Made by a program: the position numbers and the translations under genes. A stretch of DNA of 63,421 nucleotides from Amoebophrya sp. A120 (lineage: Eukaryota > Protista > Dinoflagellata). The stretch covers positions 2,585,730-2,649,150 of the forward strand of contig CAJINV010000007.1 of assembly GCA_905178155.1 (NCBI GenBank). The letters run 5' to 3'. Below, in pieces: positions 15,111-53,816 of this stretch (position 1 is the stretch's first letter; each line of letters begins with the position of its first letter). The notes under the pieces were generated by a model. The model saw only the letters and a program-made list of their open reading frames with translations. It made no database searches and had not been told where the DNA came from.

Positions 15111-18100
15111 TCATATCGGTTGCGTCTGAATGATTCTCTCTGTGGTCCCGTCACGCTTTTTCCTGACCGTGATCACCTTCAGTTGCGGCGTCCCATTTGC
15201 CCCTTGCACAACTTGAGTGTACGTCTCTTCCGCGATGACGTCGGACCTCGAAGATGCTGCTCCGCCACTGTTACCAAATCCCCCACCAGACGAGCCAGGA
15301 CCACCGGCTCCCCCACCCATTCCGCCCCCAAACATGCTATTCAAATTCGCTCCGCCGCCGAACAGATTATTCAGGTTCGTCCCAGTGCCGTTTCCGAAGG
15401 ACTGAAACCTTTGCGCGTTTCGAAATACATCTTCCCCGTTGCCGTTCGATTGTTTCGTCAACACCTCAGCGGGAAACCACGCGTCCCCGACGCTTTCGAA
15501 CCTTAGCTTCACGGTGTTGTCCCGCGGATCCATCTTCACGACGGTTCCCGTCTTCCCCAGACACCGCGCGCGCAGCGCGTCGTTGTCGGTGGAAATTTTC
15601 TTCTGCCGGCAGTAGTGCTCCACCTGCTGCCGGGTGCCCAGGACGGAGAGTCGGTCGTTCAAACGGACGATGTTGGAGGGCGCTTCGTCCATGCCGTGGA
15701 ACATACGGTTGAACACGTCGTGGAACCTATCCTATGTAAAAACGTCCCCACCCCATAGTCAAGATGGGGTCTCGGCTAGACAAATCCACAAACTTTGGCT
15801 GTTTTGCATGACAAATTTCAGCTCGTATTGTAGTGCTGTTTGAGCTATTGCAGCATCACAGATCTAGTATATCATGCGGATTGGAGCAAGAGAAATTCCA
15901 AAACACGACTGGAAAACGCTTCTCATGGGGCTCCGCATGAGAAACATTTTCAGCATGCAGACTTGCATGACAACTCTGGGGTGGGGACGTTTTTACACAG
16001 GATAGAACCCGCCGCCGAACATCTGCTGGAACATCTTCTCCGCCTCCTCTGGCGTCATCTGCCGGGCGCCGTGCGGCATTCCGCCCGCGTGGTTCGGGTG
16101 GTGGAAACCGCCTTGCCCGGAAGGGTCCGCCCCGCTCCCGACTGATGTTGGTTGTATTAATTCAGTACGTATTTGTCCACTACTTCGTTTTTGCAAACGG
16201 CAAGAGAGGGCACGAGGACCATCAAATTTTTATTTTGCGCTAGCCCGTACGTATCAAGCGACTTCAACATCGTTATAAGCGACTTCAACAAGAGCAATTA
16301 CCAGATGAACAAGCATGCTGTTAGATGCTGTGCAACAACCTGACCCCTTTCCGCCGGCGGAAGGGGGGGGGGGCCCACCCACCTTCCGGCAAGGAGACCC
16401 GAAAGCCAAGCAGCCGGGGCCGGCACGCTCGCAACCCAGTCAGACGGCCGGGGTGGGGGGGTGCGCGCAAACGAAAGGCATAGCACCGCGCACGCGATCG
16501 ATGTATCGGCGCGAGTGCATTCTTTTGGCGGCGCGCGCTTCGCGCGCGCAAGTTTCGATCGTGCGTGAATTGCAAGGCAGAGCCAAAGCCGGAAAGCGCG
16601 CGCACGCACATGCGCCGCGACCAGATACAGCCAAAAAACCTAAGAACCTAGACGTCGCAAGCGTGCGCAAGACTGCAAGCGACCGGGCCCCGCTGCCGCG
16701 GCGGCCGGCAACGAACTGCATACCACGAACGAGAGCCACGCCGCGCTTGCCCGACGCGCATTCTTCGCCCTTTTTCCCGCGCGCCCTTAAGATGGGCCGG
16801 CCCCCAAACACAGGCCCCCACCCCCCACAGCTTATGAGGCACGCTGGAACCAAAACGACACCCCCCAGAATGCCCCGCCCTTGCGCGCGTAACCTTCGAC
16901 GCGCCCGCCCAAACCGAGAAAGGAGTCCACCGGGCGCAGCGTTGTGCGGGGGGATGCTATTTTCTCGCGCCCGGGGGGGGGACTGGGGCGGCGCGGCCCC
17001 TGCCGGCTCGGCGCCGGCCGCCCCGCCCGGTGCGGCGGCCGCATCTGGGTGCGTTGCAAGCCGGCAGCGCGGCGCCGTTCCACGGCCTTTTTTGTGTCGC
17101 GCCGCCACGCCGACCCAAGCAAACGTGGACCCGTGTGCGCGCCCCATTGCCGCACCGAACGCCCGGCAGCGCTCCATTGGCCATGCTAGCAGCCTCTTCT
17201 CCCGCAATCAATGAATCCTGTGCATGGTTTGGCCCCCCCGCGCGGCGAGGGCATCGGGGCAGGGGAGGTTGCCCTCCTCCCTCGCCGGCCCCACATGACT
17301 AGGCGGCGCGCGCTTTCGCTATCGCCGGCGACAAAAAGTATGAGGTAGCGGGGGGGCCCGTTTCTCCTGTCAAACGCTGCATGGGGGCAGGTGGCGCTGC
17401 GCGGGCGGGCGCTGCCCCCGCCATGTACTGGCTGAGGCTGGCAGGTCAGGGAGCGGGGCTGTGCGTGTGCTCCCTTGGCCGGCATTTTCTAGGGGCGCCC
17501 GCGGGTGGCTTAGTGTGATTTGGTTTGCGTGGCGCCTCATGTGGAGCAAAGTTAAATTAACGAAATGGGGTTCCGGCGCCACGAGCTAGCTGGCGAGCGC
17601 AGGCAGGGGGCTTTCCTCTGCGGCCCGTGACTTGGCCTGGCGCCTGCGCCTGCCCAGGAGGAAGGGAAACAAAGCAACGGGGCCGGCCTGTTTGCAGCGC
17701 CTTTCCCCCTTCCAACACCACACGCAACCACGCACCAGCGCGCCCGCCACGCCGCGTGGCGATCGAGGTGCTGCGCGCATTGGTTGGCCACAGGCAGGGG
17801 GCCCTCTGCGCCCAAAAGAATGCCGCGGTCGCGCCGCGTGTAGTCGCGGGAAACGCGCCGGCGCCCGGTTCCGGGCCGCTTGTGGCTTAATGTATGGCAA
17901 ACATTCCAGGGGCCGGACGCCCGCCGCGCAAACAGTTCAAGAGGCGCCCTCTTATGGCGGGATCGGTAATACCGACGTCGTGGCAATACCGATTTTTTTT
18001 TAATGCCGATGACGATTGCGGAAAGGGGGGGGGGGGTGCCACCCACCTGGAGGGGCGTCTACCCCCCTTTCCGCGGGCGGAAAGGGGTCAGGTTGTTGCA

Positions 18101-34545: not shown

Positions 34546-34768
34546 TTCCTGGAATCGGTTTTCGAAGGATTCCTGGAATGTAAAATGGATTCCATTCATC
34601 TTGGACGCCTCCCGGAATTGGTTTCAATCATGGAAGCACTAGAACACCCTGGCACCTCCTGGAATAGTAAAATGGACTCCTGGAATTGTAAAATGGATTC
34701 CATTCATCTTCTTGGGCGCCTGTTCCCGGAATTGGTTTGAATAGAAGCACTAGAACATCCTGGCGCCA
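34546..34768. repeat. Degenerate nested tandem duplication (~107-bp period) built on TCCTGGAAT..GTAAAATGGA subunits
   Basis: TCCTGGAAT(T)GTAAAATGGATTCCATTCATCTT..CCCGGAATTGGTTT..GAAGCACTAGAACA.CCTGGC occurs at ~34572-34655 and ~34678-34768, with extra TCCTGGAAT units nearby. Confidence 0.85.
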
Positions 34769-35055
34769 GCGTCGGCGGAGGAGGGTGAGTATGGGTAGAT
34801 GTTGTGAACATAACGTGACCGTTCGTCGCGCCGGGGTCATAGCGCAAAGTCGTGGAGGACGAGGAGGTATTGATTACTATAAACAAGCCGTGGTGAGAAA
34901 AATGAAGTATTATTTGCAGGAGCTTAGCAATCTTGTTTCGGTCGATGTAGCAGACCGACGTGAAATATGACGGACTCGATAAACTGGGCCAAAAAAGAGG
35001 AGACAGCCACGGAGCACCACCAGAGCAAGGACCATGGTCGTTGTTCGGACCTCCC

Positions 35056-38000
35056 TTAAGCTGCGGCCGCAGTCTCAATGAGGGGAATCGCTTCAACTGC
35101 TTCCTTGATCTTCTTGGCGGTCGAAGATGAGTCTTCTTCTTCCCCCCCTGTTGCTGTAACTGCAGCGGTCGCTGATGTTGGTGAACAAGTGGACGGTGCC
35201 GTCGAACACAGCTCCGACTGCTCTTCTACCTTGCTCTCAAGAGGTGTTGTCTTAATCACGACGACACTGCTGGCATCGGACGTTAATGTCTCAGTTCCGC
35301 ACAGCACGCTGGCTGTGTTTGCAGCTGCGCCTGCTGGTGGGACGAGTTGCTCAGAAGTTGTACAGGTTCTGCCTGCACCAAAATCCTGCCCAGCTGGAAC
35401 GTTATCCTCCACGGACAAGTTTGAGGTGAGCGCATTGATGCTGTCCGTGGTTTTCTCGGAGTTCGAGGTGCTGTCTGCGTCGGAGTTCTCCGAGACCGCG
35501 GACGCCGCCGGAGACGACAAATTACTGGTCGAATGAGCGCCCTCGACCTCTACCTTCGACCGCTTCGGCTCCGGCTCTGCATCGACGGGGGATTTCGATG
35601 CTGTGTTTGTCGTTGTAGCTACGCCGTCAGATGACAGTCCTCCTGCTGCTGCTGCAACCACGACATCGGAAGTGGATTTTTCCTCGGAAGAGTTTGTGTT
35701 CTCGGTTTCTTTCTGCTGTTGCTCACTTGCGGCGGCAAGAGCCCGCCCGGCGAGTAGAGGAGCGCCGGGGACAGGACGGACGATCATCATACCTGTTTTT
35801 TGATCGTTTCTTGTGTGTTTCGTTTGGCTGCACGCAAGATCTTTGCGAGTTTGTCATGCGGAATTTCGTATAAATCTAGCTCGTCTACGTAGTATGTTTA
35901 ACGAACAGCAACTAAAAAGAGAGAAAATTGAGAAAACTTCTTTCTACTCATGTTGTCGCAGCCCACGCCCATGTCTGTTGACGGCGACTCGGCGACGTTG
36001 AAGTTCAAAAAGTCGGAGCAAACGGCGTTCAACTCCACGTCCACCTCCGCGTCGCCGCTGCCCTTGGCCGCTCGGTGCTTGTAGATCCGGTCGTTACACC
36101 AGGCGACGAGGGATTCGTTGCTTTGTTTTTCGAAAATCCCATCGCATCCGATAATCAGATAGTTGTCGTCGCCGGAAAGGTGAGTTACCTGTCATGGTTC
36201 GATACAAGAATTATCGTCATGATCGTCCTTTTTCATTTTCTGCAACTACAATCATTGAACTTTAAAATTTTATTGTTTGTGACATAAATCGCGATCGCGA
36301 AGATCAATCTGCATGAAGACTCCAAAACTGTCCATATACCGAGACGTCCGGCACGACGCAGATCCGCTGCGCCTCTGGCGCGAGTGCTTTGTCCTTGTAG
36401 ATGAGGTCGCCCATGGCTCGGCTCAGGTTCAAGTTTGAGTCCACCCGGCCCTCTTCGGACACCGTGCCGCCGGACGCGAGGATGCGTTCCCGCTCGGACG
36501 GGTTGGTCGGTTTGTGATCGAAGGAAAGCGGCACGCCGGCCCCCTGTCTGCACAGAACCGCCCGGGAGTCCCCTATCAATCGCAAAAGTGTCTGGGTCTG
36601 GAAACTTGTGATGCTAAAATGTGAATGATGGAAACAGTTCCGAATGCAACCCAGCATTACAACTTTAGAGAACGCTTTCTCATAGGCAATCCGCATGAGA
36701 AACTGCGTTTTTGCATGTACAAAAGAGGCTGCGACTTTTGTTGGTTATGCAATGCAGATTTTCATTTCTAGCTATGGAAAGCTAGCATTACAAGTTTCAA
36801 CCTTCCAGACCCAGACATTTTTGCAGTTCATATCCCCGGCGTTCGCGCAAAAAGCGACCATCTGGTCCATCTTGTCGTCGTATTGGAGCAGGACGACGTT
36901 CGCCGTGCAGCCCTGGGATTCCGGGTTAATGCCCGACGGGCCGTCGTCGAAGAGACCCCCGTATGCATTGCAAATATGTCTGGGTCTGGAAAAGTGCCAG
37001 GTTTGTCATGCATACGTAGCGCGACCCATGACGCCTGCAATGCATGACCTAGCATCACAGATTTTCAAAACGCTTGTTTCTGGTGACTAAGCTGCATGAG
37101 AAATGTTGCCCTCTCTGTGTCGCACAAACCGGACCCCTATTGCTGGCGACGCAGCACAGATTTTTTGAGAATCCAAAGACAGCATCACAAGTTGTATCCT
37201 TCCAGACCCAGACACATTTGCACTGGATACCCCGGCAAGCAGGTCCTCCACCTTCAGGTCGTCGTCGTCATCGTCGTCGTCATCGGGGTTAAGACCTGGT
37301 TTTTTTTCTTGAAACAGCTTAACCAAGCTGCAGAGCGGACGAACAACATTGATAGCATACGATGTGGCAATGAAGCACGACGAGCAGCACCCAGGCGGGC
37401 TTCATTCCAGTTCGTCATAATGGCAGCAGGAGGCAGGAATAGATCTACTCAAGTACAACTATGCGCTACTAGGCAAGGCAAGAACTTAATTCATATCCAT
37501 ACCTTTTTTCGGCGGCTGAGGGCCGATGAAGAACTCGTCCCCACTTGAGGAGTCGCTGTCTTCCTCCTTCTTTGCTTTCGCTTCGGCAGCTTCGGTTTTG
37601 TTTTTGTTCATGACAAAAATGTCGTCAATATCGTCGTCGTCCTGTTCCAAAGAGGTTCGGTTCGTCAGTTCGTCGATGCTTTTCGCGAAGTCGAGACCAG
37701 TTTTGTCAAGCGGAAGTTGTTCTTGCCCACGACTACCACCTGGAGATTTCGCGTTTTTCTCCCTTGGTTCTTTATCTTTCGCACCAGCACTCCCGGGTGA
37801 CTTCTCCTCTTCCGATGAGGTCGGCAGTTTCCCATTCGGCGGCATGGCCGGGCCAATCATGCCGTTTGGTGGCATCGCCGGGCCGATGATCGCCTTGTTT
37901 TCATTCTCTTTATCTTTTGGCGATTTGGAGGAGCTTGTTGCCGGCCCGTTGCCGACTTCGATGATTGGACCGTTGGTGGTAGGCCTTGTTTCGCCGTTCT

Positions 38001-39257: not shown

Positions 39258-41698
39258 GGTTTTGGAATAGAAAACAAAAATGTAGTAAAGCAATAGCAAA
39301 TAAATTCAAACCGATGCCGGCCTCGCGATGATATCTGAAATCATATAAACTAACAAGCTTGACACCTCGCCAAATTAGATACCAGAAAATAAAACGCAGG
39401 AAAAATGTCGCGAAAATTTTTCAGGCTACGGTAGCATATTAGCGTAAACAAGTACAATAATCGCTAGCAAGAACAGACAAAGATATGCAAGACGAAACTA
39501 GTAGTGAAGTCCAAATCGCTTATCCTTGTGTGTCAATCTCAATTTAAATCTAATTGTGTTTTTTGTCCTGTCGTCGGGATGTTTGGAAAAACGAATTGTG
39601 CTTCTGCTCTAAACAGGCAGGCTGTACTACTTAATCGATCCGCATGGGCATGCCGACCATTCTGACCAACATAATACAGTCAGAGAAACAACAAGACAAC
39701 TTGAAATCGATCTTCGTCTTCATTAGAGAGGATATATCAAAGCACCGGAAACACACAACTATGGAAAATGGGAAGAAAAACTTCCTCCTTGAGCAAAAAC
39801 ATTTGGGAGAGGAGGGGCATGACAGGGATCAAGATCGACGGAAAGTGATCAAAGCACTAGAGCCCTGCTCTCGCTCCAAGTTAAAAACATTGCTGCGACA
39901 CTTCTTAATATTGATCATCAAACTCGCAAACGCGGTCTTTGAAATTGGATCATCGAGCGAATGCGTTCATGTCTCTGCCATGTTTGTGAGGCCAAGCAAC
40001 CGCAGATTCCGATTGATGAATGCGGATCCATACATTGCCATATTAGACTCAACCAAGGTCCAGGGAAAGAGGCCATTTCTGATCAGATCATCACTTCCAC
40101 AAATTTTCGTTTCTTGTGCTACGCCTTACTTTTTTGAGGCGCGCGTGCTATGCAACTACTGTTTTGCAAAACTCGAACACGAGGAACATCAACATCCTTC
40201 ATCAACACACGACAAGCACCCTGGCGCAGAACTACGTAACTTCGTGCTGATTTTTCCGAATGATGAAACGAACAGCCACTTCCCTTTCGGTTCATTTCTT
40301 GTTCGACGCCCTCGCAATAACTGATTAGCAGCCGAGTCGCTACACCAACATCATCGGTGCTGCAGCGGTTTTCCATAAATGGCAAAAGGCATTTACGTAA
40401 GTTTTGGGAAACAGCTGCTTCAACAAAACTTACTCGCTTGACTAAACCCGAATGAATTTACTCGCCGGTTCGTCCTTCTCAGCGAAGATAAAAGCCAGCA
40501 CACGATCAACAATTGCTACTTTTTGTTTTTTTTTCTCATATACAAAAAAAAAATAAACCACGAATTGAAATTCAGCTGCGTACTGCTTGTTCTACGAACG
40601 AGAATAAGAATACGGCATCAAAACATCAAAGGGAAAAACAAATTGCGAAACTCAACCACACACTGCTCCTCCGCATTTACGATAAGCACAAAGTGAAGCA
40701 AAATTGGAATTGGCTTGGTTCATAAAAACTTCACGTTGGTTCGATCGTCCAGAGGCGAAATTATAGATGAAAACGAAAAGGCATTTGTATTGAGTTGCTG
40801 GGATCCTCCCGATCCCCTTCTGTCCGACATAGACAACAACGACAGCCAACAAACAATCCAGAAGTTGTCACCCTTTATTCTAATATCTTGGAAATACGAA
40901 AACCTGTAGTTGGATTCGCTCCACCTGTGATAGTCTTAGTAACGACCATGTACACACGTTATTGATGGCTACTGCTTTAGGACACTACAGCAAGAAGGTC
41001 GTGATGCGCAGTATTGAATGAAGCTTTTCGTCGTGCGTTAATGAACGATGGGAACCTCAATGGCACAGCGGTACTGCAGAATGGAAGTTTTGGCTGTTCC
41101 TCTTCTTTTTGTGAAAAGCAAAAAAGGCTACGCAAAAGTGGATAAAATATTGTCATTATGTTCTAGATGAATGCCTTCGCGTTTACTGGTGTTGATGTGG
41201 CGTGGCTACAGCAACATCTCGCTGGTGTAGCGTTAGCATTTTCATTTTCTCCTCTGAGGCATGCGCATGGCAATTTCAATATCAAAAGGATTCAGCAGCA
41301 CTCTCTTCAAGCGTAATTCATAATCGAAGTTCTTGTGCAACTCCATATTTATTAGGAAGGCGATTTCGTAAACGTACGCATTTCTTTTTATCTTCTACGT
41401 TACTCTAGAAAAGCGCTTTGAGTCTACGGCTTCGTGTGAACGAATGGTTTTTTGATTGATATTTACTTTACCTTTACCAGGCTGGAGCATTGTATTGCAG
41501 GATACTTAACTGTTTCATATTGACGGCTGGCCAATGATCATGCTTCGAATTCGATTCCGAGTCACGATCACGATTAAATTATGACATTGACAGGTCACTT
41601 TCTTTAGTATACAGGGTTAGGATTTAGATTTTTCGAATCTAGTGGGGCTTGTTTCATATGGAAATCGCAATCGACTCAACAGAGGAGCCACTAATATT

Positions 41699-44600
41699 TT
41701 ACTCATGTTCCGGCACGGGCGGCATGTTGGCTAAGTCAGGGCTGGAATGAAAGTCCGGCGATCGTGACACGGACGTGTCCCGGCTTCTCGGATCCCGGAG
41801 CGTTGGTCGGCACAAAGCCTGTGGCAGCGACCCCCGGAGCGAGACTCGGTGGTTCACTCGGTACTCTCGTAACGCTTTCGCGGTCACGTTGTGCACCACC
41901 TGTCTGAACCGATCGCACGCGTGGTGTTCGCCGCATTGCACTTGAAACAAATCTTGCTGATCGGCGTCGGTCACACCGTTCTTCACAAGACCCGTTTCTT
42001 GCTGTAACTGCTGTTCCAGCCGACGAAGCTGCGCGGACACGGAATCTTCTTGTTCGTTATTTTCGACGTTTGGAGATGAAGATACGCCAGAAGGAGCAGA
42101 CCCATTTTGATTCTCCCCTGGTACTGTAATTTGATCGTGGTCAACAAGGTCGGGCGACTCCCGACCCGGTTCAATCCCGAACAAGCTCGCAGAAGATCTC
42201 CCGTTCATCAAGCCAAATTGGTCGGTCTGGTTCGTCGTGTCGTGATGTGAACTGTTGTTCAGCACGGGTTGCACTGCTAAACTGCTGTCGTTCCCGTTGT
42301 TGTTCTGGACCAGGTGATTCGCTAAAGCCTCTTCAATCGCGGAGCTGGTCAATGCCCGCGTTGCGATCTGCTCCCCTTCCGTGAGCGACGGTGCTGCTGG
42401 AGCTTCTACATCAATCGGTGGAGCGTGCGTGAAATCAAACGGGTAGGAAAGAAGTCGGCGGTAGTTTTCTTTTTGCAGGTTATGATCAGGTGGTGGTTGT
42501 CCTGCAGTTCCCGTTGCGAGTCCGCTGCTCGCCGTCGTGGTCATCCGGGGCTGCAACAGTGGGGACGTGGAAGCCGACAACCGGGGAGACGGGAGTTGCA
42601 GGGAGCTCTTTTTCGCTGGGAGAGACAAAACCGGGACCACGGGCGGCTGCCGCGGACTGGGCGGGAGGGTGGTGCCTTAATATCAGGAGAAGATTTTTCG
42701 TAGATACGCAAGTCTACTAGTAAGAACGTCATGTCTATTTCCTAAGTCGATCCTTATGTTCGCCTCTAGCTCGAGGCAAATTTCATTTTCGGAAGGGGAA
42801 AGCATGGCAGCAGCCCTAGTATGTTCATCCAGCAGCTCTACGCAGAAACAGAATGCAAGTGGAAATAAAAGGAGGCGCAAAAATTCCGAACACATACCAC
42901 TGGTCTTTGCCGGCGGTACCACACCCAGGTTCTTTCCTCCCCCCGTACTGTTCCTGCTCTGTTCCTCAGCACGACCTCCAGGTGGGTTCTGCAACTGCGG
43001 CCTGGGGCTCACCGCCGGACTGTTTTGCACTACTCGAGGGGCTAGCTGCGTCGTGCTGATCAGCCGCTCGGAAACGACTCGGCCCTGGTCCGGCCTGGGG
43101 GATTTGGAAACCACGCGCTCCGATACCACACGAGACGCGGTCCAGATACCGTTCAACTGTCATTTTGTGGTTCGAACTTTCGAAAAAGATGAGACGGAAA
43201 AGTGAGTACTAGAGTCTGTGATGCAAAACAACAGATGCAAATTCAGTTGTGCACATCAACACCGTAAACTTAAGTACCACCGATGGGTGCCTCTCATCCC
43301 CTCCTGCGCCGGGAACAACACTGTTTTGAGGCGGTCGCGGGCTGACGCCCTGCTGTGAAGCGCTGTCACGCGGTGTGGCAGCGGGCCAGGGGGATGTCGT
43401 TCTAGATGCCGGCATCGTGGTCGTAGCACCACCACCAGCCGGAGCGGACAACAGAGGCGGCTGCGTCAACGGTGCCGATCCGATCGTTGAGGAGCTGCCC
43501 CCTCCTGTTCGCCTCTGCTTCTGGGCTGTATCCTGCACCTGGGCTGGCGGACTTAACAGTGGCTGTGTGCTCTTTCTGGACAAGGAAGCAGCGGCTGCCT
43601 CGCGCTTCTGTGTCTGTTCCGCGGGGGCTGTGATTATAAACCCAGCGAAAATACGTGTTTTGTTCCATTTGAAAAGATGGCGTGCAATCTAGCCGAGAAA
43701 AGAGTGGTCCTGGCACAGGTACTAACTCAGGTCAAACTCCAAGAAAGAGAATCAATTTATCAAATTCAAAATGAAAAAGAGTAGAAGCATTCTTGTAGTA
43801 CGTACTCACCTTTCTGCTCCCCCGGTTCCTTGATTTTCAACGAGGACCGAGATCCCTCTAAACGTTTGCAGTTCGGCCAGTCCTGGTACTCCGAATGCAC
43901 TAACGGTGGCACCGCCGTCTGCGGCGCGGCGGGCTGCGCAGACTCTTCTGCAGCAAAAGGAATCGCTTGCACTTCCGGAGCCGCCGCTGGGGGGTCGACG
44001 TGTACAGAAGTCGTGCTTTCTCTTGCTGCTAGCTCCTTCTTCGCAGCTTCAGTTATTTTTTTCTCAACTTTCTCTACCTCTCCGGCTGGAGAAGGAGATG
44101 AAGCCGCGGACATCAAAGTACTACTTTTATTCTCCTGCTTCGTCTTTCTTTGCTTCGCCGGACCGCCAGTGTTGGATGACGTGCTGCTTCTCGCTGCACT
44201 CTTCGCCGACGATCGTTTTCCAGTCTCGCTTTTCTTCCCTAGAGCCGCAGTAGCCTTCACGTTCGGTTTTTTGGTCGCAGAGGCCCTCCGTAATGCGCGG
44301 GATCGACTGCCTTGCTGGGAGAGAGAATTGCTGTGCTCTTCCGTCTCCCCGCTGGACATGATCGTCTCTAACGGTGGCGGCTGTCTCGGTTTGCTCGTGC
44401 GCGTGTTGCGGAAAAGTTTTTGCAGGTTCGGTTTTTTAATGCTGCCGTCGGAATTTGATGTTTTGTTGCCTGCACTGTCGATATTGTTTGCTCTCGCCGG
44501 AGCCGTGTTCCGGGCATTGGATAGGCCGGTCGGGTTGGTCCCTACATTTAAAACATTTTCGCCCACCACGACGTCCGTCTCTTCTTCCAACGACCCCGCA

Positions 44601-47163
44601 CTGTAGTTCGCCCGACCGATGTGGCAGGTGGGCGGCGCGGACGCGCGTAGCCGGATCTGGTCCTGGCGCATTTGGTCTTCGGTCATGGGAGCGTCTTTGT
44701 CCAAATCCTCGAGCACAGCGCCAAGATTAGCTAAATCTTCGTTGTTAGGCACGGCAGCCGGAGCGTCTTCCAGGATGGTGCCGGAGTTGATGGCCTAGTG
44801 TGGAAAATTGCACTTCTCTTCGGAGCGTCAAAATATTCCCATTCAGCTGTTCAATATGATGCACACGATCATCAACGAGCATGCCACAGCAAGTCCAATT
44901 CGCACACTACGCCGCAGTGGAAACTAGTACAGTTACAAATACAAATACTCCTTACCTCCTCAGCCGCGTCTTGCTGTTCTCCCTCTTCAGAGCCCTTACT
45001 CGTGGTTTTCCGAATGAAAGATGTTTGCATTTCCGTCGTCCGCCCCGTCTTCAGCGCCCGTCCGGTGGCCTGCGAGCCTCGGGTTGATCCACCACGGATG
45101 TCGATCGAACTGCGCGCGGAACGATGGGAAAGGGTACCTGCAGGAGTAGCGGGTAGGTTCGAGCGTGAGACGCAGCCGGCGAAATTTCCAATGTTCATAC
45201 CGAACAAAGGTTCATGTTGCAAGGTAGGTCCATGTTAAGCGACATAGACCTGAATATAGTAAATCTACCAAGCTGCAATAGTACCTGGCAGTATATCCTG
45301 CACAGTGCTGGCCTCGTTTTTCATCTTCATCTGCATCAATTCTCCTTCCAAATCCGCAATCCGCTGCTTCAGCTGGACCAGTTCCAGTTTCAGCTCCGCG
45401 TTTTCCTTCAAAAGTGTCAGATTTTCCTCATCCTGCTGCTGAATTTGCGATCGCATCTCGTTCGCCTCGTTCTCCAGGTGCATCATGTCCTCCGGAGTGA
45501 GCGGCGGCACGACGGCGGTGCCATTTTCGGTAGTCAAAACCAGGTTGGAATTCAGGACAACACCTTCATGAATTTTCGTGGTCAAGGAATGGCTCAGAGT
45601 CAGACATACCCGATGCTATTACATGAAGCACACCGAATCAAACTCATCATGCCCAAGTTTCAAAAAAAATCAGCTCGTCCACCGCCTTGCTCCAATCCCC
45701 AGCATTTTGTATGAATACCTTCCCCGTTCAGTTTCTCTCTGCAGTATTGCAGGTATTTGAGCCGGCCGCGCAACTCCGCAACCCGGGCCACCTGGTTTGC
45801 GTATTTCTGTTCGGTGCGTTCGTGTTTGTGCACCAATTCCTCCATTTGTCGTTCGAATTTCTGCTCGATTTTCTGCTTGATAGGAATTTTCGCTTCCCGG
45901 GTCCGTTCCAGCACTTCCAAGTCATGCCGCACCTTCAACGCGTGCGCGTCTTGGCGACGGACCTGAAAAAGTTGATGTCATGTGCTTTATTTTGCAGCAA
46001 GAATGTTCTACTTCTGCAAGTGCCATGCACTGTTCTGTTTCGAGCACGTCGATTTCGGCGAAGTACGCTGCTCTCGTCATCTTCATCATTCATCGATACC
46101 TCCTTGCTCGTCGCATTAATCTCCCGATCCAGTTCCCTCTGCGCGCGGTTCAGACTCCGGCCCCGTTCCTGTTCCTGGAGTTGCAGGTCCCGAATCTGCG
46201 CTATGGGATTCTCAAATGTTACATTCTCAACTTTTACAAACATGATTTGTCATGCAAATTTGCCACCAAGCTCGCCACCATTAAGGTGCTTCGCATGACA
46301 AATCTCCGAAGTGGCTAAATAGCATGTAAATCTGTGCCAAATCTGTAATGCAAGAGGCGCAAGATTCCCCCATTCATTTTTGCCGTTCTTGCATTACAAA
46401 TTCATGTAACAGTTGAGAATGTAACATTTGAGAACGCCATATGCGCTTGGTGCGAGGCCTCGTTGAGCCTACGTTCCTTCTCCAGCATCAGTAAGTGGTT
46501 TACGAGCTCATCCGGCACCAACGCCCGCACGTTGCGGGGCGTGCCACTGCCGGACCGGGGCGTTTTGTTGTTGGTCATGCCGCGCGACCGGGTCGTGCCG
46601 CTTCCTGGTTGTTGGTTCAATATCCGCGTATTCGGGTGGTCGTAGTTTTCCTTCGGTGCGGCCATCGTGTGTGGCGTGGGTGAAACAGAGGCTGGAAGGC
46701 TGTATATCGATTTGAACGCTTTCGGCAACTTTTTGGAATGCTTCTGGCGACTTTTTGCGGACACCATCCTAGTGATGGAGTTCCAGGGGAGTTTACGCCA
46801 ACAGATTGATCATGATACACAAATGAAAGCTCAACGTGATCATCATCTCCATCTTCAACATCATCCATCTTTGGGAATTCTTTACTTAGTTTCGCCGCTG
46901 CCCCGGCCGGAGAGCAAGCAGTTGGTCTGGAAGGGGTCTGTGGGTGTTGGGGCCGCCGTACTGCAGTTGGAAGCCGGATTGAATTTGTTCATCCCTGGCT
47001 GGTGCTGCCCTCGCGCGGAATGCATTTTATTTCCTCCTGACGAGGTCTTTTTGTTTTTCCTTTCGTTTTGCGAAGATGACTGCATCTTCGCGGGCTTGGG
47101 TGGGGTCCGGGCGAAATGCATCTCCCCCGCCGCGGACACCTGACCCGCGACGGCCCGAATCAT
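41699..47163 (-). CDS. Large hypothetical protein with N-terminal coiled coils and a S/P/T/Q-rich low-complexity C-terminus, ~11 exons
   Basis: ORF pieces join in frame through GT-AG introns (e.g. 46769-46884, 45963-46099, 45564-45718, with further junctions near 45284/45138, 44955/44795, 43809/43628, 43278/43157, 42897/42676) and one TIR intron. Heptad segments such as LKENAELKLELVQLKQRIADLEGEL. No domain recognised; both ends are approximate. Confidence 0.7.
46202..46441. mobile_element. Introner element 4 (non-canonical intron ~46201-46445, CG-AG register)
   Basis: 37-bp TIR TATGG(GA/CG)TTCTCAAATGTTACATTCTCAACT(T/G)TTACA (34/37). Direct repeat TGCGC at 46197-46201 and 46442-46446. Removal gives SHQA-Q-IRDLQ in frame. 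Confidence 0.92.
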
Positions 47164-47910
47164 TCTGATCAAAACTGGTACCCGCCTTCACCTTCTTTCG
47201 TGCTGCGGAGGTGTCTTTGTTCCAAGACGTTGCTAATTTAAGTTAATTGTTGTAGTTTCTTGGATTATAATCCAACACGACCACATCACAGATTCACATT
47301 GATTGCACCAGGTTGATGTTGTGAGGCCTTTTCTATGCCTCGTTTGGTACACTTCTCAACAACAAGTGCACGACCTTGTTCCGGAAGATGATCAAGAGAA
47401 CCAAACCAAGAACGAAAACCAAGACGACAGACACGCAATGGGATCAATAACTTAAGCACGTTTTCGCAGATGAAACGTACATCAGCTGCAAGAAGTAGAA
47501 CAAAGGCGGCTTTTGTTGCGAAACAGAGAGCAAAAAGTGGTGCCGCGCTTTCGCGCGTGATGTTGTCTTGTCTGCCGAAAGCAACAGAGAACACCTTTCT
47601 TTAGCCATGTTCTGCAATCAACATCGCTAGGACGATGAGGAGAACTCAATCATCCACCCAACTTCTATCTGAAGAAGTGTAGAAAACTCGTTACTTCTCT
47701 GCGCAAATGCCCTAATAAAGGCCGACAGTGACAGATAACTTTTCATCCAACTGCTCCTCATGGGGCTGTTGGGCCTGCGACGTGTTTGCTTTTCAGATGT
47801 TGAGCACTCCAAACACAACAGTACTAGTACTGAAAGAAAAACCACTTGCGTGCAGGTATTTCATGTTCTTGAGTACATGTTCACGAAAAATGGGATCGCT
47901 GTCCTCTTCA

Positions 47911-48258
47911 TCATGCTTTCCCGACTATAAACACGCTCCCTGAGTACGGTTGACTGCGAGTATCGTTTCCCGAAAACCTGACTTCCGTTGGCACCTTGTT
48001 GTTTTCTTCGCCACAACTGCCTCCCCCCGCGCGCTTGCATTCGCTTTCGAATTCTGCCACCGCTTTTCGCATGGTGTTTGTTGTACTGCCAAAGTGTGAA
48101 TTGAAATCCGGGGACGCGTCGGGGATTTTACCAGGTCCGGCCTTGCGAAAAAGGTTTGCAATTTTCTGCCTGCCGCCCGGGTGCCGGTCGATAAAGCCGG
48201 TCACGTCCACAAGGTACCCGTTCAGACGGACGATGACGGGGGATGTGGTCGATGCCAT
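47911..48258 (-). CDS. Small cytochrome b5-like heme-binding domain protein
   Basis: VRLNGYLVDVTGFIDRHPGG..DASPDFNSH matches the b5 YDVT.F..HPGG and DAT..F..H pattern. Confidence 0.75.
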   Translation of the reverse strand: MASTTSPVIVRLNGYLVDVTGFIDRHPGGRQKIANLFRKAGPGKIPDASPDFNSHFGSTTNTMRKAVAEFESECKRAGGGSCGEENNKVPTEVRFSGNDTRSQPYSGSVFIVGKA

Positions 48259-49088
48259 GCGATTACGAGTATGGTCGTGCGTTTCTAAGTGCGTACCCTT
48301 AAACTTCTACCCGTGGCCACACAAATGAGCATGTGTTACATACTCTACTGACAGAATCTTCAGCAAATATGTAGCCGTAATTTACCTATTCCTATTTTTT
48401 CTTCTAGAAAATTCAAATTGTACTCGACACAAGTACTTACTGAGCATGATTTCTGAGTCTGACTTCATTTTCGACTTCGCTGAAAATAACAAGATAAAGG
48501 GGTGACGGAACTTCTCAAGTTTGCGTTTCGGTCGGACGAACTCAACTTCTAGTGCGAAAAATCGTGCCACGAGACCCTGCGGCATTTCCCGCGGACCGGG
48601 ATTTCTCAAATCTATCAGTGAGGACGTTTTTGATCCCATTTGCATGCGCGGGCACTAAAAAACATCACATGGAAGCAGAAAAAGTCATATCCGTCGAACA
48701 CTCACTGCTGAACATTTTTGACATCAAACACGCACAGCTGTAGCGCGGGTGCAGGGGTATGATGTACGTCTCCACCTAGACCTACATCCACCACGACCAA
48801 GTACTTACTCGAGAAAAAAGATGCGCCAGTAGCCTAGTATGCGTTAAAGGTTCAATTTGTTTAATTGCTTCACATCGAGCGAGTCATGTTGAGAAGGAGC
48901 TTGTCCGTGCGTTTGAGTCATCCTCGTCTTTCTCATATGATCAAGTTGCAGAAGAGGACATGAGCACCATCATGCGTTTATTTTCTGCAGCAATCTTCCT
49001 CCCGTTCCAGAAGTACCTAAACAATTAAACGAGTGGACGATCTTTCATTGCACCATGTTGATCATCTTGAGAAACCTTACTTCTCTCC

Positions 49089-52000
49089 TCAACTTGCCCT
49101 CGGACTGTTTACCAGCCGATAGTAATCCGCGGTCGATGAGCCCCCTCCACCTGCAGTTCCGGAGCGTGTCGAGATTGTGGTCACATCTTCAGGCCCACCA
49201 CCTCCAAAGATCCTCGTGCTCGTTGCGCTAAACACCGGTCCCAAGGATGGTCTCTCTAGAACTTGCTGTGAATGTGATTCCGACGCCGCTGCGTTCATTA
49301 CACCAGAACCAGTCAACGTCACCGCATGTGGTCTCCTGTTCGACGCCATTCCCCTTCCTCCCCCCTGCTTCGCCACGGCTTTGCGGAACGACTTTTCGCT
49401 CTGGAAGAGGTCGATCATACCCGGGCCGTGTGCCGCGCCCACACAGACCAACACCAATCTGCGCTTCGGCGCGGCGTTCAACCCGATCTCCAGATCTGTC
49501 ACCGCTTCCGGCGCCCCGTCGGTGGTACTGGACGCGGATTCCTCGTCGGAAATCGTAGTGGGTGCGAACCTTGTTTCTTCCAAGTAGCGCAGCACGTTGT
49601 AGCACATGAACTGGTTGCGCTGCGTCAGCATAATGTGCACGTACGACGGGATCACGAGAAAGAGAAACAGCGTCACCATCACGTCCGCGGACAGCAGCGT
49701 GTTGAAAAAATTCTGGAGCGGTCCCTCCTCGGCGGAATCGCTCAGTGACGGCGCCGACGTTGTCTGGTCTGGTAGTTCTCCATTGGGAGAACCCGTTGAC
49801 ATCGCAGCTTTTCTTGTCTTCGCAGATGATGAACCACTGTCGCTCATTAGCGACAGCAAGACGTAGTTGTAAATCGCGAAGGCCAAGATTGAAATCACCC
49901 AGGACACAAACTGGCAGGCGACCACCAGCGCGAGACACGCGAGCAAGGGTGCGCGGCCCAACGTCGTCAACAGCAGACCATACATGTCAACGGAATACGT
50001 GGGGTACAGGCAGTACTGGAACAGCCACCGCGGCACCGCGAGCCAGAAGAGCAGCGCGTAAAACACGTTCTGGAGGGGGGCTTTTAGGAACCTCGTGATA
50101 AAATTCGTCCCCAGCACCTCGTCGGAACTGTCGACGAGGAGCAGCGGTCGTTTCAGCAGTTCCGCCACCCGGCCCGCGTTGAGGAATTCCTGGCCGGCCC
50201 GGATCCCGAACAAGTCCGCGACGAAGTACAGCACCGACGCGGGCCACAGCGCGATAGCGAAGGCGAGCTGCCGCTTACGGTTCTCCTTCGCGCGCTGCTG
50301 GCGTTTTTGCTTCTCCTTCTGGTACTGCTTGATATTGACGACGTCCCAGGAGGTCTTGGGTAGCGTGCCGGACGTAGTTGTTTCTGGTTTCAAATTGACC
50401 ATTTTCACCGCGGATAAGTCAAACTTAGTATTGTTCGCGATTTGGAGGAGAAGTTGGGAGTCCGGGAGCGAAAAGCACGGGATTTCGGGATTCTCCGTGC
50501 GCCAAGCGGTGGATTTGCAAAAAAGCAAGTCGTGGACCACGTCGCTGCGCTTTCTCGGTAAGGGCTTGGGAAAACTCGCAAAGACGAAGTCTGTGTCGAG
50601 GTTTGGCTGAGCAGGTCGATTTTGGCTCTGTGGTCCTGGTTCTGCTGTTGATAGTGTAGTCCCATGATCTACTTTCGCTTTTGGTATGGGTGAGAAGTCT
50701 AGCACCTTGTTTCTCTTTTGCTGCTCCAAACTGTTACACCCGGAGTCTGTGTCTTCTTCACACTGTAAGAGCAATACGCCCTTCGCCCCGGCGCTCTCCA
50801 GAGAGTGTACCACAAGTCTCGGATGGAGCTTGGAACCGGGGAAGGCGACGACAAAACTGTTGGCAAGGGTGGTCAAGACGCGCGCGGTTCTTTCGACTGG
50901 GCGGTCGAAATAGGAGACGGAGGAGGCGTAGGCTGTTTTGGATTCAAATTTTACATGAAGAGCACAACAAATTTTTTGTCACTGTACATCACAGTAGGTG
51001 GAAACAAATGCATCTCTTCATCAAGCCGATGTAATACATCGAAGCATAACTACAACTACATCAACTGGGGAAAGATCATCATTCTTCTATACTGCTCCGA
51101 TAGAATGGCATGTTCCTCTGCCCCTCATCCGCTCCCCATTGCTGCAGGGCCTGCTCCAATTCCGGTGGCCAAAACGTCAGCTTCGCAGGTTTCGTGTCAA
51201 ACGCAGTCTCTTTTGGCAAGAGCAAATTCCACTCCGCAACAGGGAGGTTCATGACGAATCGCCTCGCGGTGCCGGAACCATCCTCCAACTGCTCAAACTG
51301 AACTCTATCGGTCAGGAGCTGGTGGTTTTGCGCGTGTTCTTGAGAGGCAGCAGCACCAGTAGATCCTGCTGATGAGGTGTAGAAGTCCTTCGGTGCAGCT
51401 GCTACGGAAGTTTGCATGGGTGCAGCAGCAGCTGCTGGCAGCGCTGCAGAAGTTGTCGAATTTGCATTCAGTTTCAGCTCTCTCTTCTCGACCACATCCT
51501 GCATGTCCGCTTGGGTTGACAACCCGAGATACCGCTTCACGTCTAACTCGACCGCTATGATGTCCGGTTGTAGCTGCTCAATGACGTCCAACACGTCCAA
51601 GGCGCTCACCGCTAGGCCGTGGTTGCTACCGAAAATCACCAAGTCCGCTTCGCCGTCCGCGACCCGCATCGGGGCCGAAGCGCCGTAGGGCCAAGCGAAC
51701 GAATTGCTCGAAGTTCTTGTCGCAACATTTTGCCGATTTTGCTGTTCTTGTTCCACCAGAGCGAGGTTTGTGTCTGTCAGCAGCGTCCTTGTTGCGGCCG
51801 ATTCCAGCTGGCTCGGCGACTCATCGCGCCAATTTGGCGGCTTGTGGTCCGGCGACTTCTCTAATTGTTGTATCGGTGTCGTGAGTTGCGGCTTTAATTT
51901 TTTCTCGTCGCTCATGCTAGAGTGTTGGAGCAATACGTTGCTCGCGGCTTCAACTCTCGTCCCCGGAGCTCCTCCTGTATTACTACCTCGTTGTGGTCCT

Positions 52001-53816
52001 CCTGTTTGTAACGGTGCTGTTGTACTAGTAGTCGCATTTTCATCACCATTTCCGCCAAACACCCTCCGCCATATCCAGCCGAACATTCCGCATCCAGACA
52101 CCAAGTACCACGCCACGTCGCAGAGCGATGGCGAGCTCGTGATAAAACTGTACTTCGACTGTTGTGTCTTGCTTCTCCTCTCCTCAATCACCGAAGCGGA
52201 AAATTGCTTCTCCAATCTCTTCGCGACCGACGTGGTACCACTACCGCTGGCGCCACTAAATGATAAGCTGCTGGCCGTGCGGAAGGACCGGAGCTTTTCC
52301 AATTTCGAGGAAACCCGCAGCCGCACGAAAAACCGCCACAGGATGATGGAAGCAAGAAAAAGAGGCCACCAGTAGTCATTGTCGCTGATCAGGCATTCCG
52401 GAACTAGGATTTCTTGGCTCGACGGTGGATGGTCTTTTGTTGATGTTTCGTCGAGCTGTCTTTGATGTTCCGGCGCTGTTTCTTCAGCGGCCAATGTTAT
52501 ATTATCATCATCTGACACCGCCCGCTCTGCAGCCGTTGGAACATCAAGTTCTGCACCTTCACCCATCGGCTTGGTCGCTTGTTTCGCAACCTCCTCCGGC
52601 TCACCTAGTAGCTGCTTCGGCAAGTAGCTAGATAGCTCCACGGCTCGCCACGCTGCAGCGCGGATCGGCTGCCGCGAGCTCCATTTCACTGAAGATTTTG
52701 TACTTGTGGATCGGATTCCAAAAAGATATTCTATTTCTTTTGCTGCATCAGGGGCGGCGCTGCGAGTAGACTGCTCAAGCAAAATCCTGCGAGACGCAGA
52801 ACTGGCACCTCCAGGTGCAGGACTTGCAGTAGGAGGTCCAATGGCGGAAGAGCCTCCTGGTTGTGCAGAGTATGACTCTACTAATTCACGTTGTTTTTTC
52901 TCGTCCAGCAAATTTCCCTTTTCCTTCGCCAGTTCTTCCTGCAGATCTGCGTTGTTCCACACCGCAATAGACAGTGGCAAACCCAAAATCGGCAACCCAC
53001 AGTACACCTGGTAAAACTGCACACCTACTGTTTTAGGGAAGACGATCATATCAAAAGTAAAAATGTCTGGGTCTGGAAACTTGTGATGCTGGGTGGCGTG
53101 TCATGACGAGGCTACAAATGCTGGCTCAGCATGACAAGTTTCTGAGCTCCTAGGTGTTGCCTATTCTGCATGACAAACTGCGGCTCTGCAGCACAGAAAG
53201 AGAAAAACGGAGCTCTTGTCTACCGTGCATGACAGATTTAGGAGTCATGCCAGGCAAGCATGACAAACATGAATTCTTCCAGACCCAGACATTTTTACAG
53301 TTGATAGATCAAAGACGCCAGCAATCCGATGATGAGCAGATCCAGAATGATCAGTTTCTTTCCGCGCAAAAACAACAACTTCTTCGCGTCCATCTCTTTC
53401 CCGGCAAAGGTCTGCGTCGCGTCCACATGCCGCTGGTCGTAAAGCGAAAAGGACCCATCCGACCTACGGACTGGCCTCAGAAGATGCATCGGGGATGGAG
53501 CTTGCTGGTTGTGGTTCTTTGTCTTTGATGAAGCGGACGTGATAATCAATGCGTTTCCTCCGCCAATAATACGAGAAGATGACTCTTGCCCTTGCAGCGA
53601 CGACGTTTTGTTCAGCATGGTGAAGGTGATTGGATTCATACTGAAAGATTTTGATATTTTCCTCGTCGGTGGAATAGAAGTATCACTAGCGCTATCTTCT
53701 TTCACGGGCGAGTTTGTGCGTGATGAAAAGTTAGAGTTAGCTGCGTTCTGTCCTCGGTCTGCAGCGGGCGTAAGCAGCGGGACCTCCGCATCCGCCCAGC
53801 TGCGACTGCGAAACAT
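49089..53816 (-). CDS. TraB/TRABD-family multi-pass membrane protein, 3 exons
   Basis: Exons 53816-53311, 53047-51093 and 50896-49089 are in frame (TIR intron plus GT-AG intron 50897-51092). TraB blocks: IFGSNH..DVLDVIEQLQPDIIAVELDVKRY, EFLNAGRVAELLKRPLLLVD, LTQRNQFM, VLVCVGAAHGPGM. Several hydrophobic helices. Confidence 0.8.
53049..53306. mobile_element. Introner element 5 (non-canonical intron ~53048-53310; neither GT nor AG in any register)
   Basis: 30-bp TIR TATCAA(AA/CT)GTAAAAATGTCTGGGTCTGGAA (28/30), the same family as elements 2 and 3. Direct repeat GATCA at 53044-53048 and 53307-53311. Removal gives GLLASLI-VFPKT in frame. Confidence 0.93.

What the first reader, a model, noticed from the sequence alone, without database searches (positions are those of the whole stretch)
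15728..53306. Five transposon-like introns from three TIR families share one spaced end code, suggesting a common mobilisation/excision system
Seen: the elements at 15728-16004, 36574-36832, 36962-37229, 46202-46441 and 53049-53306 are all 240-277 bp, with 30-37 bp TIRs and exact 5-bp direct repeats that differ between sites. Each sits inside a coding sequence whose frame is restored only by precise removal. The distal TIRs form three unrelated families, yet all ten arms fit TATS-N8-A-W-R-Y-G-T (TAT at 1-3, A at 13, YGT at 16-18). Known: IR/DR-bearing introner elements are described in Amoebophrya, but as far as I recall their transposase and splicing route are unresolved. Inference: a bipartite end signal is read by a single enzyme that makes 5-bp staggered cuts.
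Basis: partly seen in the sequence, partly recalled or inferred. Interest (0 to 1): 0.85.

Follow-up and report, generated by a model that had tools for sequence, protein, structure and literature searches.

The report
Transposon introns with one-sided landing motif
These five inserts are the already published transposon-like introns of the plankton parasite Amoebophrya, and the proposed shared end code fails in most families, but copies of the commonest families sit at an exact distance from a short DNA motif on one side only, which likely is the landing mark read by their still unknown mobilising enzymes.

Summary
All five elements are real: TAT...ATA ends, 30-37-bp TIRs, exact 5-bp repeats; transcript-like contigs lack element+5 nt in 3 of 3 tested. 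They are the published A120 introner elements (TAT-N7-AAA, 5-bp repeats; PMC7789003), which this scan has met many times on other DNA. In 263 further copies from a metagenome assembly (12 families), the full code TATS-N8-A-W-R-YGT holds only in the window's three families and in 2 of 176 other arms. What is shared is TATS, an A-tract and an internal GCATBACA box (263/268 elements; noted earlier in this scan). Not found in print or earlier notes: a one-sided target motif at an exact distance, AADTYGY, 9 nt from the duplication (TYG on one side in 100/150 copies of the main family; background 7%; holds in held-out data; far side flat). It ignores element orientation and transcription, and differs between family groups (T-G-A-A), which argues for several related transposases rather than one. 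Removal happens in RNA, without target-supplied GT-AG, so mobilisation and excision are likely separate systems. No transposase was found.

The parts
15728..16004 (.). E1: TIR element, CCCCAC family, intron of a minus-strand DnaJ gene; 5-bp repeat GAACC at 15723-15727 and 16005-16009
   Evidence: junction peptide in P0067 colinear with P0068; not tested with reads
36574..36832 (.). E2: TIR element, GTCTGG family, intron of a minus-strand PP2C gene; repeat TCCCC
   Evidence: joint 36568>36833 skips 264 nt in X3 and X5; splits NAGDSR
36962..37229 (.). E3: TIR element, GTCTGG family, same PP2C gene; repeat CCCCG
   Evidence: joint 36956>37230 skips 273 nt
46202..46441 (.). E4: TIR element, TTACATTC family, in an unnamed minus-strand gene; repeat TGCGC
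   Evidence: joint 46196>46442 skips 245 nt
53049..53306 (.). E5: TIR element, GTCTGG family, in the gene of P0066; repeat GATCA
   Evidence: annotated protein joins 53307 to 53048; not tested with reads
36847..36853 (-). One-sided target motif of E2 (TTTTTGC), ending 9 nt from the duplication
   Evidence: scores +4.3 bits on a matrix trained without the window, other side -6.4; coordinates worked out by hand
36941..36947 (+). One-sided target motif of E3 (CCGTCGT)
   Evidence: +5.3 bits versus -3.5
53321..53327 (-). One-sided target motif of E5 (GGATTGC)
   Evidence: +3.2 bits versus -0.7
15708..15715 (+). Second-type target motif beside E1 (G-N-T-G-A-A-N-A)
   Evidence: fits the matrix of the CCCCAC+CCCTCCCC families; E1 was 1 of the 29 elements used to build it, so this is not an independent test
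15806..15972 (+). Internal GCATBACA boxes of E1 (15806, 15853, 15965; variant at 15935), all on the non-coding strand
36607..37189 (.). Internal boxes of E2 (36607-, 36654+, 36785+) and E3 (37004-, 37052+, 37182+)
46248..46398 (.). Internal boxes of E4 (46248-, 46293+, 46344-, 46391+)
53082..53265 (.). Internal boxes of E5 (53082-, 53129+, 53168+, 53227+, 53258+)

Best explanation
The five inserts are short, non-coding TIR elements with TATS...ATA ends and 5-bp duplications; they are likely mobilised by a small set of related, still unidentified integrase-like (DDE) transposases that likely read a motif on one side of the target and cut at a fixed distance, and they are removed from RNA by what is likely a separate, hairpin-guided splicing route. 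Shown: anatomy; 5-bp duplications; removal of element+5 nt from transcript-like contigs; both orientations; no GT-AG supplied by the target; shared internal box; one-sided fixed-distance flank motif that differs between family groups. Inferred, with my odds: (1) the flank motif is read at insertion, on DNA (85%); geometry AADTYGY-N9-[5-bp duplication], i.e. staggered cuts 9 and 14 nt from the motif; (2) the internal boxes are binding sites for the mobilising protein (70%); (3) at least two related target specificities exist, so more than one enzyme or targeting module (70%); (4) the enzyme has an integrase-type fold near Ginger/IS3EU (45%); (5) the intron is cut out by a relaxed U2-type spliceosome positioned by the terminal stem, the element's N|TAT standing in for the G|TAT donor (55%).
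For: Target motif: T at -15 in 52% and G at -13 in 50% of 527 half-sites, counted from the centre of the duplication (background 22%, 28%). Main family: T-N-G on one side 114, both 6, neither 30 of 150; both expected 26.5 if sides were independent (Fisher 1.3e-12). The one-sided model beats the symmetric one by 119.7 log units; 25 permuted pairings reach at most 26.6. A matrix trained on 68 copies gives +3.1 bits on 79 held-out copies at the exact offset and is negative at all 12 other offsets; it transfers to a second family (31 copies, +2.2 bits); the far side is flat. Side is independent of element orientation (58:57) and of transcription (62:49). 3 of 3 main-family elements in the window carry it. 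By-eye check on letters shown from the window organism's own runs: T-N-G in 5 of 13 and 1 of 3 half-sites (42% expected under the model, about 6% by chance). The motif predicts most of the codon-phase bias (0.22/0.35/0.43 predicted; 23/32/61 seen). Families differ at -13 (permutation p 5e-4 over the 8 largest families). Internal box: 263 of 268 elements, 12.5 per kb against 0.21 per kb in the rest of the window, first copy mostly 33-34 or 41-43 nt from the end, no sense/antisense bias (99 vs 98 of 153). Splicing: element+5 removal keeps frame in 116 of 120; any GT/GC-AG reading is possible in 12 of 183, as in random exon 5-mers (6.3%); ends pair in the predicted fold in 5 of 5; 12 of 13 neighbouring canonical donors begin GTA, 6 GTAT. 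An A120 family with TA/TA ends and 5-bp TSD is filed as Ginger-like in a published dataset.
Against: No transposase was found: none in 50 window ORFs, none in the 150 longest of 226 locus ORFs; the four elements over 400 bp show no recognisable gene (only the L029 ORF was run against Pfam). Most target statistics come from one metagenome assembly whose species identity with the window is not established (one search returned A25 at 55% and no A120 protein in the length range searched); the loci were picked by one family's TIR word, so 154 of 268 elements are that family. The second motif rests on 29 elements and the grouping of families was made after seeing the data. 30 of 150 main-family copies lack T-N-G on both sides, and E4 has no match. 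TAT is not better kept on the 5' arm than on the 3' arm. Drift between the two repeat copies falls mostly on third codon positions (19 of 28; p 0.015-0.07 against a free intronic copy), which sits awkwardly with one fixed cut register. IS3EU/GingerRoot make 6-bp, not 5-bp, duplications.
Confidence: 0.6

Rival explanations
1. One transposase moves all families (the first reader's single enzyme, with the shared internal box rather than YGT as its site); differences in target motif come from small samples or from the enzyme changing over time.
For: All families share TATS, a 5-bp duplication, the internal box and mostly T at -15 (enriched at p<0.05 in 8 of 13 groups).
Against: G versus A at -13 is 212:49 in two families and 19:39 in four others (grouping post hoc); heterogeneity permutation p 5e-4; positions 14-30 of the TIRs are family-specific; the main matrix scores those four families below zero.
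Confidence: 0.2
2. A separate targeting factor (a host DNA-binding protein, a transposon-encoded adaptor as in Tn7, or an RNA-guided factor needing a PAM-like motif) binds the one-sided motif and recruits the transposase.
For: The motif is strictly one-sided, at an exact distance, with no sequence preference at the cut itself, and element orientation is free.
Against: No such gene was found. The motif holds only 3.9 bits and does not co-vary with the element's own TIR base, so no sign of base-pairing guidance. A host factor would not easily give family-specific motifs.
Confidence: 0.2
3. The introns are removed without the spliceosome, by a structure-specific endonuclease and ligase that measures from the terminal stem, as proposed for euglenid nonconventional introns.
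For: Either orientation, any 5-mer, no GT-AG; no 5'/3' asymmetry in arm conservation; U1 snRNA not detected in A120.
Against: Nearly all spliceosomal proteins and U2, U4, U5, U6 are reported in A120; N|TAT resembles the local G|TAT donor and ATA|N the ACA|G acceptor; earlier notes of this scan report a fixed register (not tested directly here).
Confidence: 0.35
4. The internal GCATBACA box is a branch point carried on both strands so that the element can be spliced in either orientation.
For: It has the U-n-A-C shape of a branch site (consensus recalled), lies 33-43 nt from the end, and CATGAC occurs 7 times on the sense strand and 0 times antisense in 13 read-supported canonical introns (0.6 expected).
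Against: 13 of 153 oriented elements have no sense copy, E1 among the window's five; the sense 3' copy is kept no better than its mirror (26 vs 25); outside elements in the loci the strand split is 28:22.
Confidence: 0.15
5. The elements are cut out of DNA (as ciliate IES are), by the same enzyme that inserts them.
For: Removal of exactly element plus one repeat; transposon-like ends.
Against: The DNA-like run X1 has single-copy contigs running into the TIRs of E2 to E5, while the contigs that lack the elements also lack GT-AG introns. The published study validated such introns by RNA-seq.
Confidence: 0.04

Closest known systems
Introner elements (IEs) among the non-canonical introns of Amoebophrya sp. 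A120 (Farhat et al. 2021, PMC7789003; sections 10, 11, 12, 16 read whole, supplement legends read, figures not visible)
   Same: TAT start, then 7 loose bases and an A run; 3-5-nt direct repeats (5 bp in the Fig. S19 legend); about 240 nt; hairpin ends; no GT-AG; many families; transposase not found. Two window genes are 100% identical to A120 proteins.
   Different: The text read does not mention the internal box, a target motif, orientation independence, or family-specific target choice. The paper argues against general transposase-mediated mobilisation; the target motif argues for it.
A120 introner family 38 and other 'TIR DNA, unknown' families (Gozashti et al. 2025, PMC12130899; passages, and rows 1-41 of 58 A120 rows in supplement file 8)
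   Same: TIR elements of 106-340 bp; family 38 is noted as 'Ginger; 5-bp TSD, TA/TA termini'.
   Different: Family 38 is about 810 bp with Copia/Gypsy-like ORFs and, by the paper's text, lacks Ginger termini and TSD; its sequence was not seen, so it could not be compared with these families.
IS3EU/GingerRoot DNA transposons (PMC10045372 and PMC12730594, passages)
   Same: TA..TA (TAY..RTA) termini, TIRs over 30 bp, integrase-related DDE transposase as a plausible driver.
   Different: Their duplications are usually 6 bp, here 5 bp; no transposase found here; no distal target motif is described in the passages read.
Recipient-end capture by bacterial copy-out/paste-in IS (IS911, IS2, ISCth4; PMC7780238, passages)
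   Same: [quoted passage not shown] The target motif resembles the GCAA stretch of the main TIR, one base further out.
   Different: There the bound site is the element's own second end and the spacing is imprecise; here it is a 3.9-bit genomic motif, the distance is exact and both strands are joined with a 5-bp stagger. The motif does not follow the element's own TIR base.
Non-palindromic half-site motifs at retroviral integration sites (bioRxiv 10.1101/2022.10.26.513837, abstract only)
   Same: A weak palindrome that resolves into one-sided sub-motifs under a mixture model.
   Different: Those sub-motifs lie next to the integration site; here the cut site is nearly free and the motif sits 12-18 bp from its centre.
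Nonconventional introns of Euglena (PMC12501133, abstract) and Fritillaria (PMC11282704, passages)
   Same: TIR- and TSD-bearing introns without GT-AG, likely of MITE origin.
   Different: Euglena uses a CAG/CTG code and a purine at the exon start; Fritillaria favours AG-AC/AG-AT ends. Here no base preference is seen in the duplication on the sense strand.

Membership tests
Amoebophrya A120 introner elements | IR begins TAT, 7 loose bases, then an A run | tested here: met
   the A run is shifted or absent in three families (TTACATTC, GCACAA, GAAATC)
Amoebophrya A120 introner elements | 3-5-nt direct repeats at the exon/intron borders | tested here: met
   5 of 5 exact 5-bp; 223 exact in the loci
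Amoebophrya A120 introner elements | Absent from spliced RNA, without GT-AG | tested here: met
   3 of 3 tested (one sample); E1 alone admits a GT-AG reading
Amoebophrya A120 introner elements | Repeated in the genome of that organism | tested here: met
   summed contig depth 9,000-186,000 over element bins against about 30 elsewhere (not a copy number); host proteins identical to A120
MITE (non-autonomous TIR transposon) | Short, TIRs, fixed-length TSD, no coding capacity, many copies | tested here: met
MITE (non-autonomous TIR transposon) | Cognate autonomous element with a transposase | tested here: inconclusive
   none in 63 kb of window and 433 kb of loci; no whole genome was available
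MITE (non-autonomous TIR transposon) | Empty orthologous sites with one copy of the duplication | not testable with these tools
   raw reads X9/X10 did not cover the locus; only protein-level colinearity with relatives
IS3EU/GingerRoot | TA..TA (TAY..RTA) termini | tested here: met
   definition
IS3EU/GingerRoot | 6-bp target site duplication | tested here: not met
   5 bp; no 6-bp repeat among 367 pairs
IS3EU/GingerRoot | IS3-like DDE transposase | not testable with these tools
   no autonomous copy in hand
Canonical U2 spliceosomal intron | GT/GC-AG ends | tested here: not met
   possible in 12 of 183 oriented elements, chance level 6.3%
Canonical U2 spliceosomal intron | Lariat with a branch adenosine | not testable with these tools
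   no raw reads of this strain; the internal box failed a strand test as branch point
   281/308, 26/34 and 10/18 arms in the three window families; 2/176 in all others

The most novel reading that the evidence does not exclude
A120 introners belong to an undescribed eukaryotic transposon system that chooses sites like a type IIS enzyme or a PAM-dependent integrase: a family-specific module reads a 7-bp motif on one side and a ruler places a 5-bp staggered insertion 9-14 nt away, in either orientation and at any sequence, while a separate hairpin-measuring splice route erases every insertion from the mRNA. The targeting module would be exchangeable between families.
Probability: 0.3. Interest if true: 0.88.

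Novelty: new variant of a known kind. Interest (0 to 1): 0.62.

Why it matters
How tens of thousands of these introns spread is an open question: the describing paper found no transposase in A120 and doubted transposase-driven movement. A strong, exact-distance target motif that ignores transcription is hard to explain without a DNA-level integrase, and it gives a fingerprint: candidate enzymes can be tested for the motif and the 9/14-nt geometry, and families can be sorted by enzyme. One-sided distal target reading was not found for a eukaryotic TIR transposon in my searches (limited library). It also explains the codon-phase bias of these introns without invoking splicing.

Tried and rejected
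No whole genome is held for this window and the metagenome records could not be searched further, so no genome-wide extraction. TIR words gave no match in viral contigs or prokaryote genomes. No Rfam family in the window. No run was listed as an RNA holder on record; raw RNA reads X9 and X10 did not cover the locus (12 and 0 reads laid), so they give no test. One search showed 15 of 272 joints, all from repeats, so it says nothing on empty sites in DNA. Transposase search: negative on 50 window ORFs and 150 of 226 locus ORFs of 170 aa or more; unpaired arms revealed no long element beyond 1104 bp and 834 bp. Rejected: YGT as a class signal; selection for GT or AG in the duplication; orientation bias to transcription; RNA pairing of the flanks as the source of the -15/-13 signal, since the two sides are anti-correlated; guidance by the element's own TIR base; the internal box as an obligatory branch point. 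The fixed cut register of earlier notes could not be tested directly because all five window repeats are perfect; the indirect tests were inconclusive. Rows dropped: of 367 repeat-blind pairs, the 104 with 3 or fewer matches in the 5-bp repeat were left out of the 268-element set (many are inner or mis-paired arms; some of the 21 with 3 matches are real older elements); 56 of 268 could not be oriented; 9 lacked 40-nt flanks on both sides. Family names are my own diagnostic words. PMC2546779 (IS911 targeted insertion) is not held; only its title was seen. Figures S19-S25 of PMC7789003 are images and rows 42-58 of the A120 table in PMC12130899 were not read; either could hold flank logos that bear on the novelty claim.
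Full report
1. The observation. The five elements lie at the stated coordinates. Each begins TAT, ends ATA, and is flanked by an exact 5-bp direct repeat; no other repeat length from 2 to 11 fits. Arms are 30-37 nt at 83-94% complementarity. All ten arms match TATS-N8-A-W-R-YGT; the window holds 11 matches against 0.93 in shuffles, though the pattern was derived from these arms. Family profiles found no sixth element in the window. E2, E3 and E5 form one TIR family, E1 and E4 two others.

2. They are introns. Two contig sets of one sample (X3, X5; RNA status guessed by the tool) skip 264, 273 and 245 nt at E2, E3 and E4, i.e. element plus one repeat, along with 12 GT-AG introns (15 of 16 joints shown). 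The DNA-like run X1 has single-copy contigs that run into the TIRs of E2 to E5. E2 splits the PP2C motif NAGDSR. Database proteins join the exons across E1 (P0067, colinear with relative P0068) and E5 (P0066); these two were not tested with reads. Two window genes match proteins labelled Amoebophrya sp. A120 at 100%.

3. What is already known. Farhat et al. 2021 (PMC7789003; sections 10, 11, 12 and 16 read whole; supplement legends) describe A120 introner elements: IRs that start with TAT, seven loose bases and at least three As; 3-5-nt direct repeats; about 240 nt; no U1 snRNA; no transposase in A120. Gozashti et al. 2025 (PMC12130899; passages; rows 1-41 of 58) class most A120 families as TIR DNA of unknown superfamily and note family 38 as Ginger-like with 5-bp TSD and TA/TA termini. 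So the class, the TAT start, the A run and the 5-bp repeat are published. This scan has also reported the class on many other pieces of the genome.

4. A larger sample. No genome was held. One metagenome scan with the main TIR word gave 182 loci, 433 kb, all from one assembly, sharing only element sequence with the window. Whether it is the same species is not established, but window elements are 77-92% identical to their nearest copies. A search blind to direct repeats gave 367 TAT..ATA pairs: 223 with an exact 5-bp repeat, 28, 6 and 3 at 2, 3 and 4 bp, none at 6-10 bp. I kept the 263 with at least 4 of 5 matches and added the window's five: 268 elements in 12 families plus 7 unassigned. The sample is biased to the main family (154).

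5. Test of the end code. The full code holds in 281/308, 26/34 and 10/18 arms of the three window families and in 2/176 arms of all others. A shift of a base or two rescues two small families only. TAT-S holds in 167/176 of those arms and A13 in 154/176, failing in one family (0/18). The YGT part is thus a coincidence of the three families present here. What all families share is an internal box, AAAYYTGTVATGC: at least one copy in 263 of 268 elements, 12.5 per kb against 0.21 per kb elsewhere in the window, with the first copy mostly 33-34 or 41-43 nt from the end. I saw it; earlier notes e1-10628542 and e1-10626161 report it too. It is kept equally on both strands, which fits a DNA-binding site better than a branch point.

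6. Splicing needs nothing from the target. With flanks framed independently by a codon model, removal of element+5 keeps frame in 116 of 120 confident cases. Elements lie in both orientations to transcription. The duplicated 5-mer has flat base composition on the sense strand; a GT/GC-AG reading is possible in 12 of 183, the chance rate (6.3%). The arms pair to the tips in the predicted fold of 5 of 5 window introns. Canonical donors nearby are GTA in 12 of 13 and GTAT in 6, so N|TAT could serve as a relaxed donor. Earlier notes report a fixed cut one base before TAT and four after ATA; I could not test it directly, since all window repeats are perfect. Indirect tests: no 5'/3' difference in TAT conservation, and repeat drift biased to third codon positions (19 of 28; p 0.015-0.07), which is mildly against a freely drifting intronic copy. 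I put a relaxed spliceosome at 55% and a non-spliceosomal endonuclease at 35%.

7. The new result: a one-sided target motif. Counting from the centre of the duplication, 527 half-sites show T at -15 in 52% and G at -13 in 50% (background 22% and 28%), while the cut site itself is nearly free. The signal is one-sided: in the main family T-N-G is on one side in 114, both in 6 and neither in 30 of 150, against 26.5 expected on both (Fisher 1.3e-12); a one-sided mixture beats the symmetric model by 119.7 log units, permutations by at most 26.6. The oriented motif is A-A-D-T-Y-G-Y at -18 to -12 (3.9 bits), the far side flat: AADTYGY-N9-[5 bp]. TYG stands on either side in 100 of 150 main-family and 15 of 31 ATCGTAC copies against 169 of 2286 shifted controls. 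A matrix from 68 copies scores 79 held-out copies at +3.1 bits at the exact offset and below zero at all 12 others, and transfers to the ATCGTAC family. The side is unrelated to element orientation (58:57) or transcription (62:49), so it is not a splicing signal; the sides are anti-correlated, so it is not RNA pairing. All three main-family elements in the window carry it. By eye, letters displayed from the window organism's runs show T-N-G in 5 of 13 half-sites (table 5c, 7 usable of 12 rows shown of 57) and 1 of 3 loose ends. The motif's availability in coding DNA predicts a phase split of 0.22/0.35/0.43; 23/32/61 is seen.

8. More than one specificity. Position -13 differs among the eight largest families (permutation p 5e-4). 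Four families favour A (39 of 88 half-sites, p 1e-6); CCCCAC and CCCTCCCC give G-N-T-G-A-A at the same offset (29 elements; log-likelihood 61.8 against 15-30 at eight other offsets). The grouping was made after seeing the data and the numbers are small. T at -15 is common to most families. This suggests related enzymes or targeting modules on a shared scaffold rather than one enzyme.

9. Mechanism. Shown: items 1, 2, 5, 6 (frame, orientation, no GT-AG), 7. Inferred: a DDE transposase binds the internal boxes and family-specific TIR, captures a target through one-sided contact with the motif and joins both ends with a 5-bp stagger 9 and 14 nt away. [quoted passage not shown] The TA..TA ends resemble IS3EU/GingerRoot, whose duplications are 6 bp (PMC10045372, PMC12730594, passages), so membership fails on that feature. 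No transposase was found in 50 window ORFs or the 150 longest of 226 locus ORFs.

10. Novelty. The target motif was not found in nine literature searches, in the texts and supplement parts read, or in two look-ups of this scan's notes (8 of 30 notes shown). Unseen figures S19-S25 of PMC7789003 and subscription papers could contain it. Other papers consulted: PMC11282704, PMC12005148, PMC9860276 (passages), PMC12501133 and bioRxiv 10.1101/2022.10.26.513837 (abstracts). Verdict: new variant of a known kind; interest 0.62.

Noticed in passing
window 16324-18107: A 1784-bp GC-rich element with 46-47-nt TIRs (GATG...CATC) flanked by TTA on both sides, inside an intron of the DnaJ gene; no Pfam hit in its three long ORFs. 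A TTA duplication would suit PIF/Harbinger (recalled). Unrelated to the TAT elements.
   Followed up: partly
window 1-1930: GC-rich repeat region (61-73% GC) with eight or more copies of a 29-nt unit near its right end; probably the end of another large mobile element.
   Followed up: no
window 35793-51092, 13 read-supported GT-AG introns: Donors are GTA in 12 of 13 (GTAT in 6); CATGAC occurs 7 times on the sense strand and never antisense (0.6 expected), 8-116 nt from the acceptor. A possible branch-site or enhancer motif of this U1-less spliceosome.
   Followed up: partly
22 framed elements with drifted repeats in L014-L161: Mismatches between the two repeat copies fall on third codon positions in 19 of 28 cases and only once on a first position, as if both copies were under coding constraint; could mean a variable cut register or gene conversion from empty alleles.
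   Followed up: partly
L029:95-1198: 1104-bp member of the GAAATC family with perfect 5-bp repeat and a GC-rich interior; its 238-aa frame has no Pfam hit.
   Followed up: partly
L038:632-1465, L042:3304-3760, L079:571-1051: Enlarged members of short families, likely carrying nested inserts.
   Followed up: no
L043:3140-3257 and L048:5171-5290, L042:2683: A further repeat with arms containing TGTGTAACTGTAACAC that does not start with TAT at the expected place; possibly another element class.
   Followed up: no
L075:2009-2335: A TIR pair with different ends (arms beginning TATTGGTTAAC) and AT-rich flanks, not of the 5-bp class.
   Followed up: no
run X9 laid on window 53275-53306: Raw RNA reads of a run that does not cover this locus still hold the main-family TIR with another flank, so the family extends to a related strain or species.
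   Followed up: no
whole window: The protein-coding genes checked lie on the minus strand, as in the co-oriented blocks described for Amoebophrya; a weak zf-UBR hit on a plus-strand frame at 39635-40321 was not examined.
   Followed up: no
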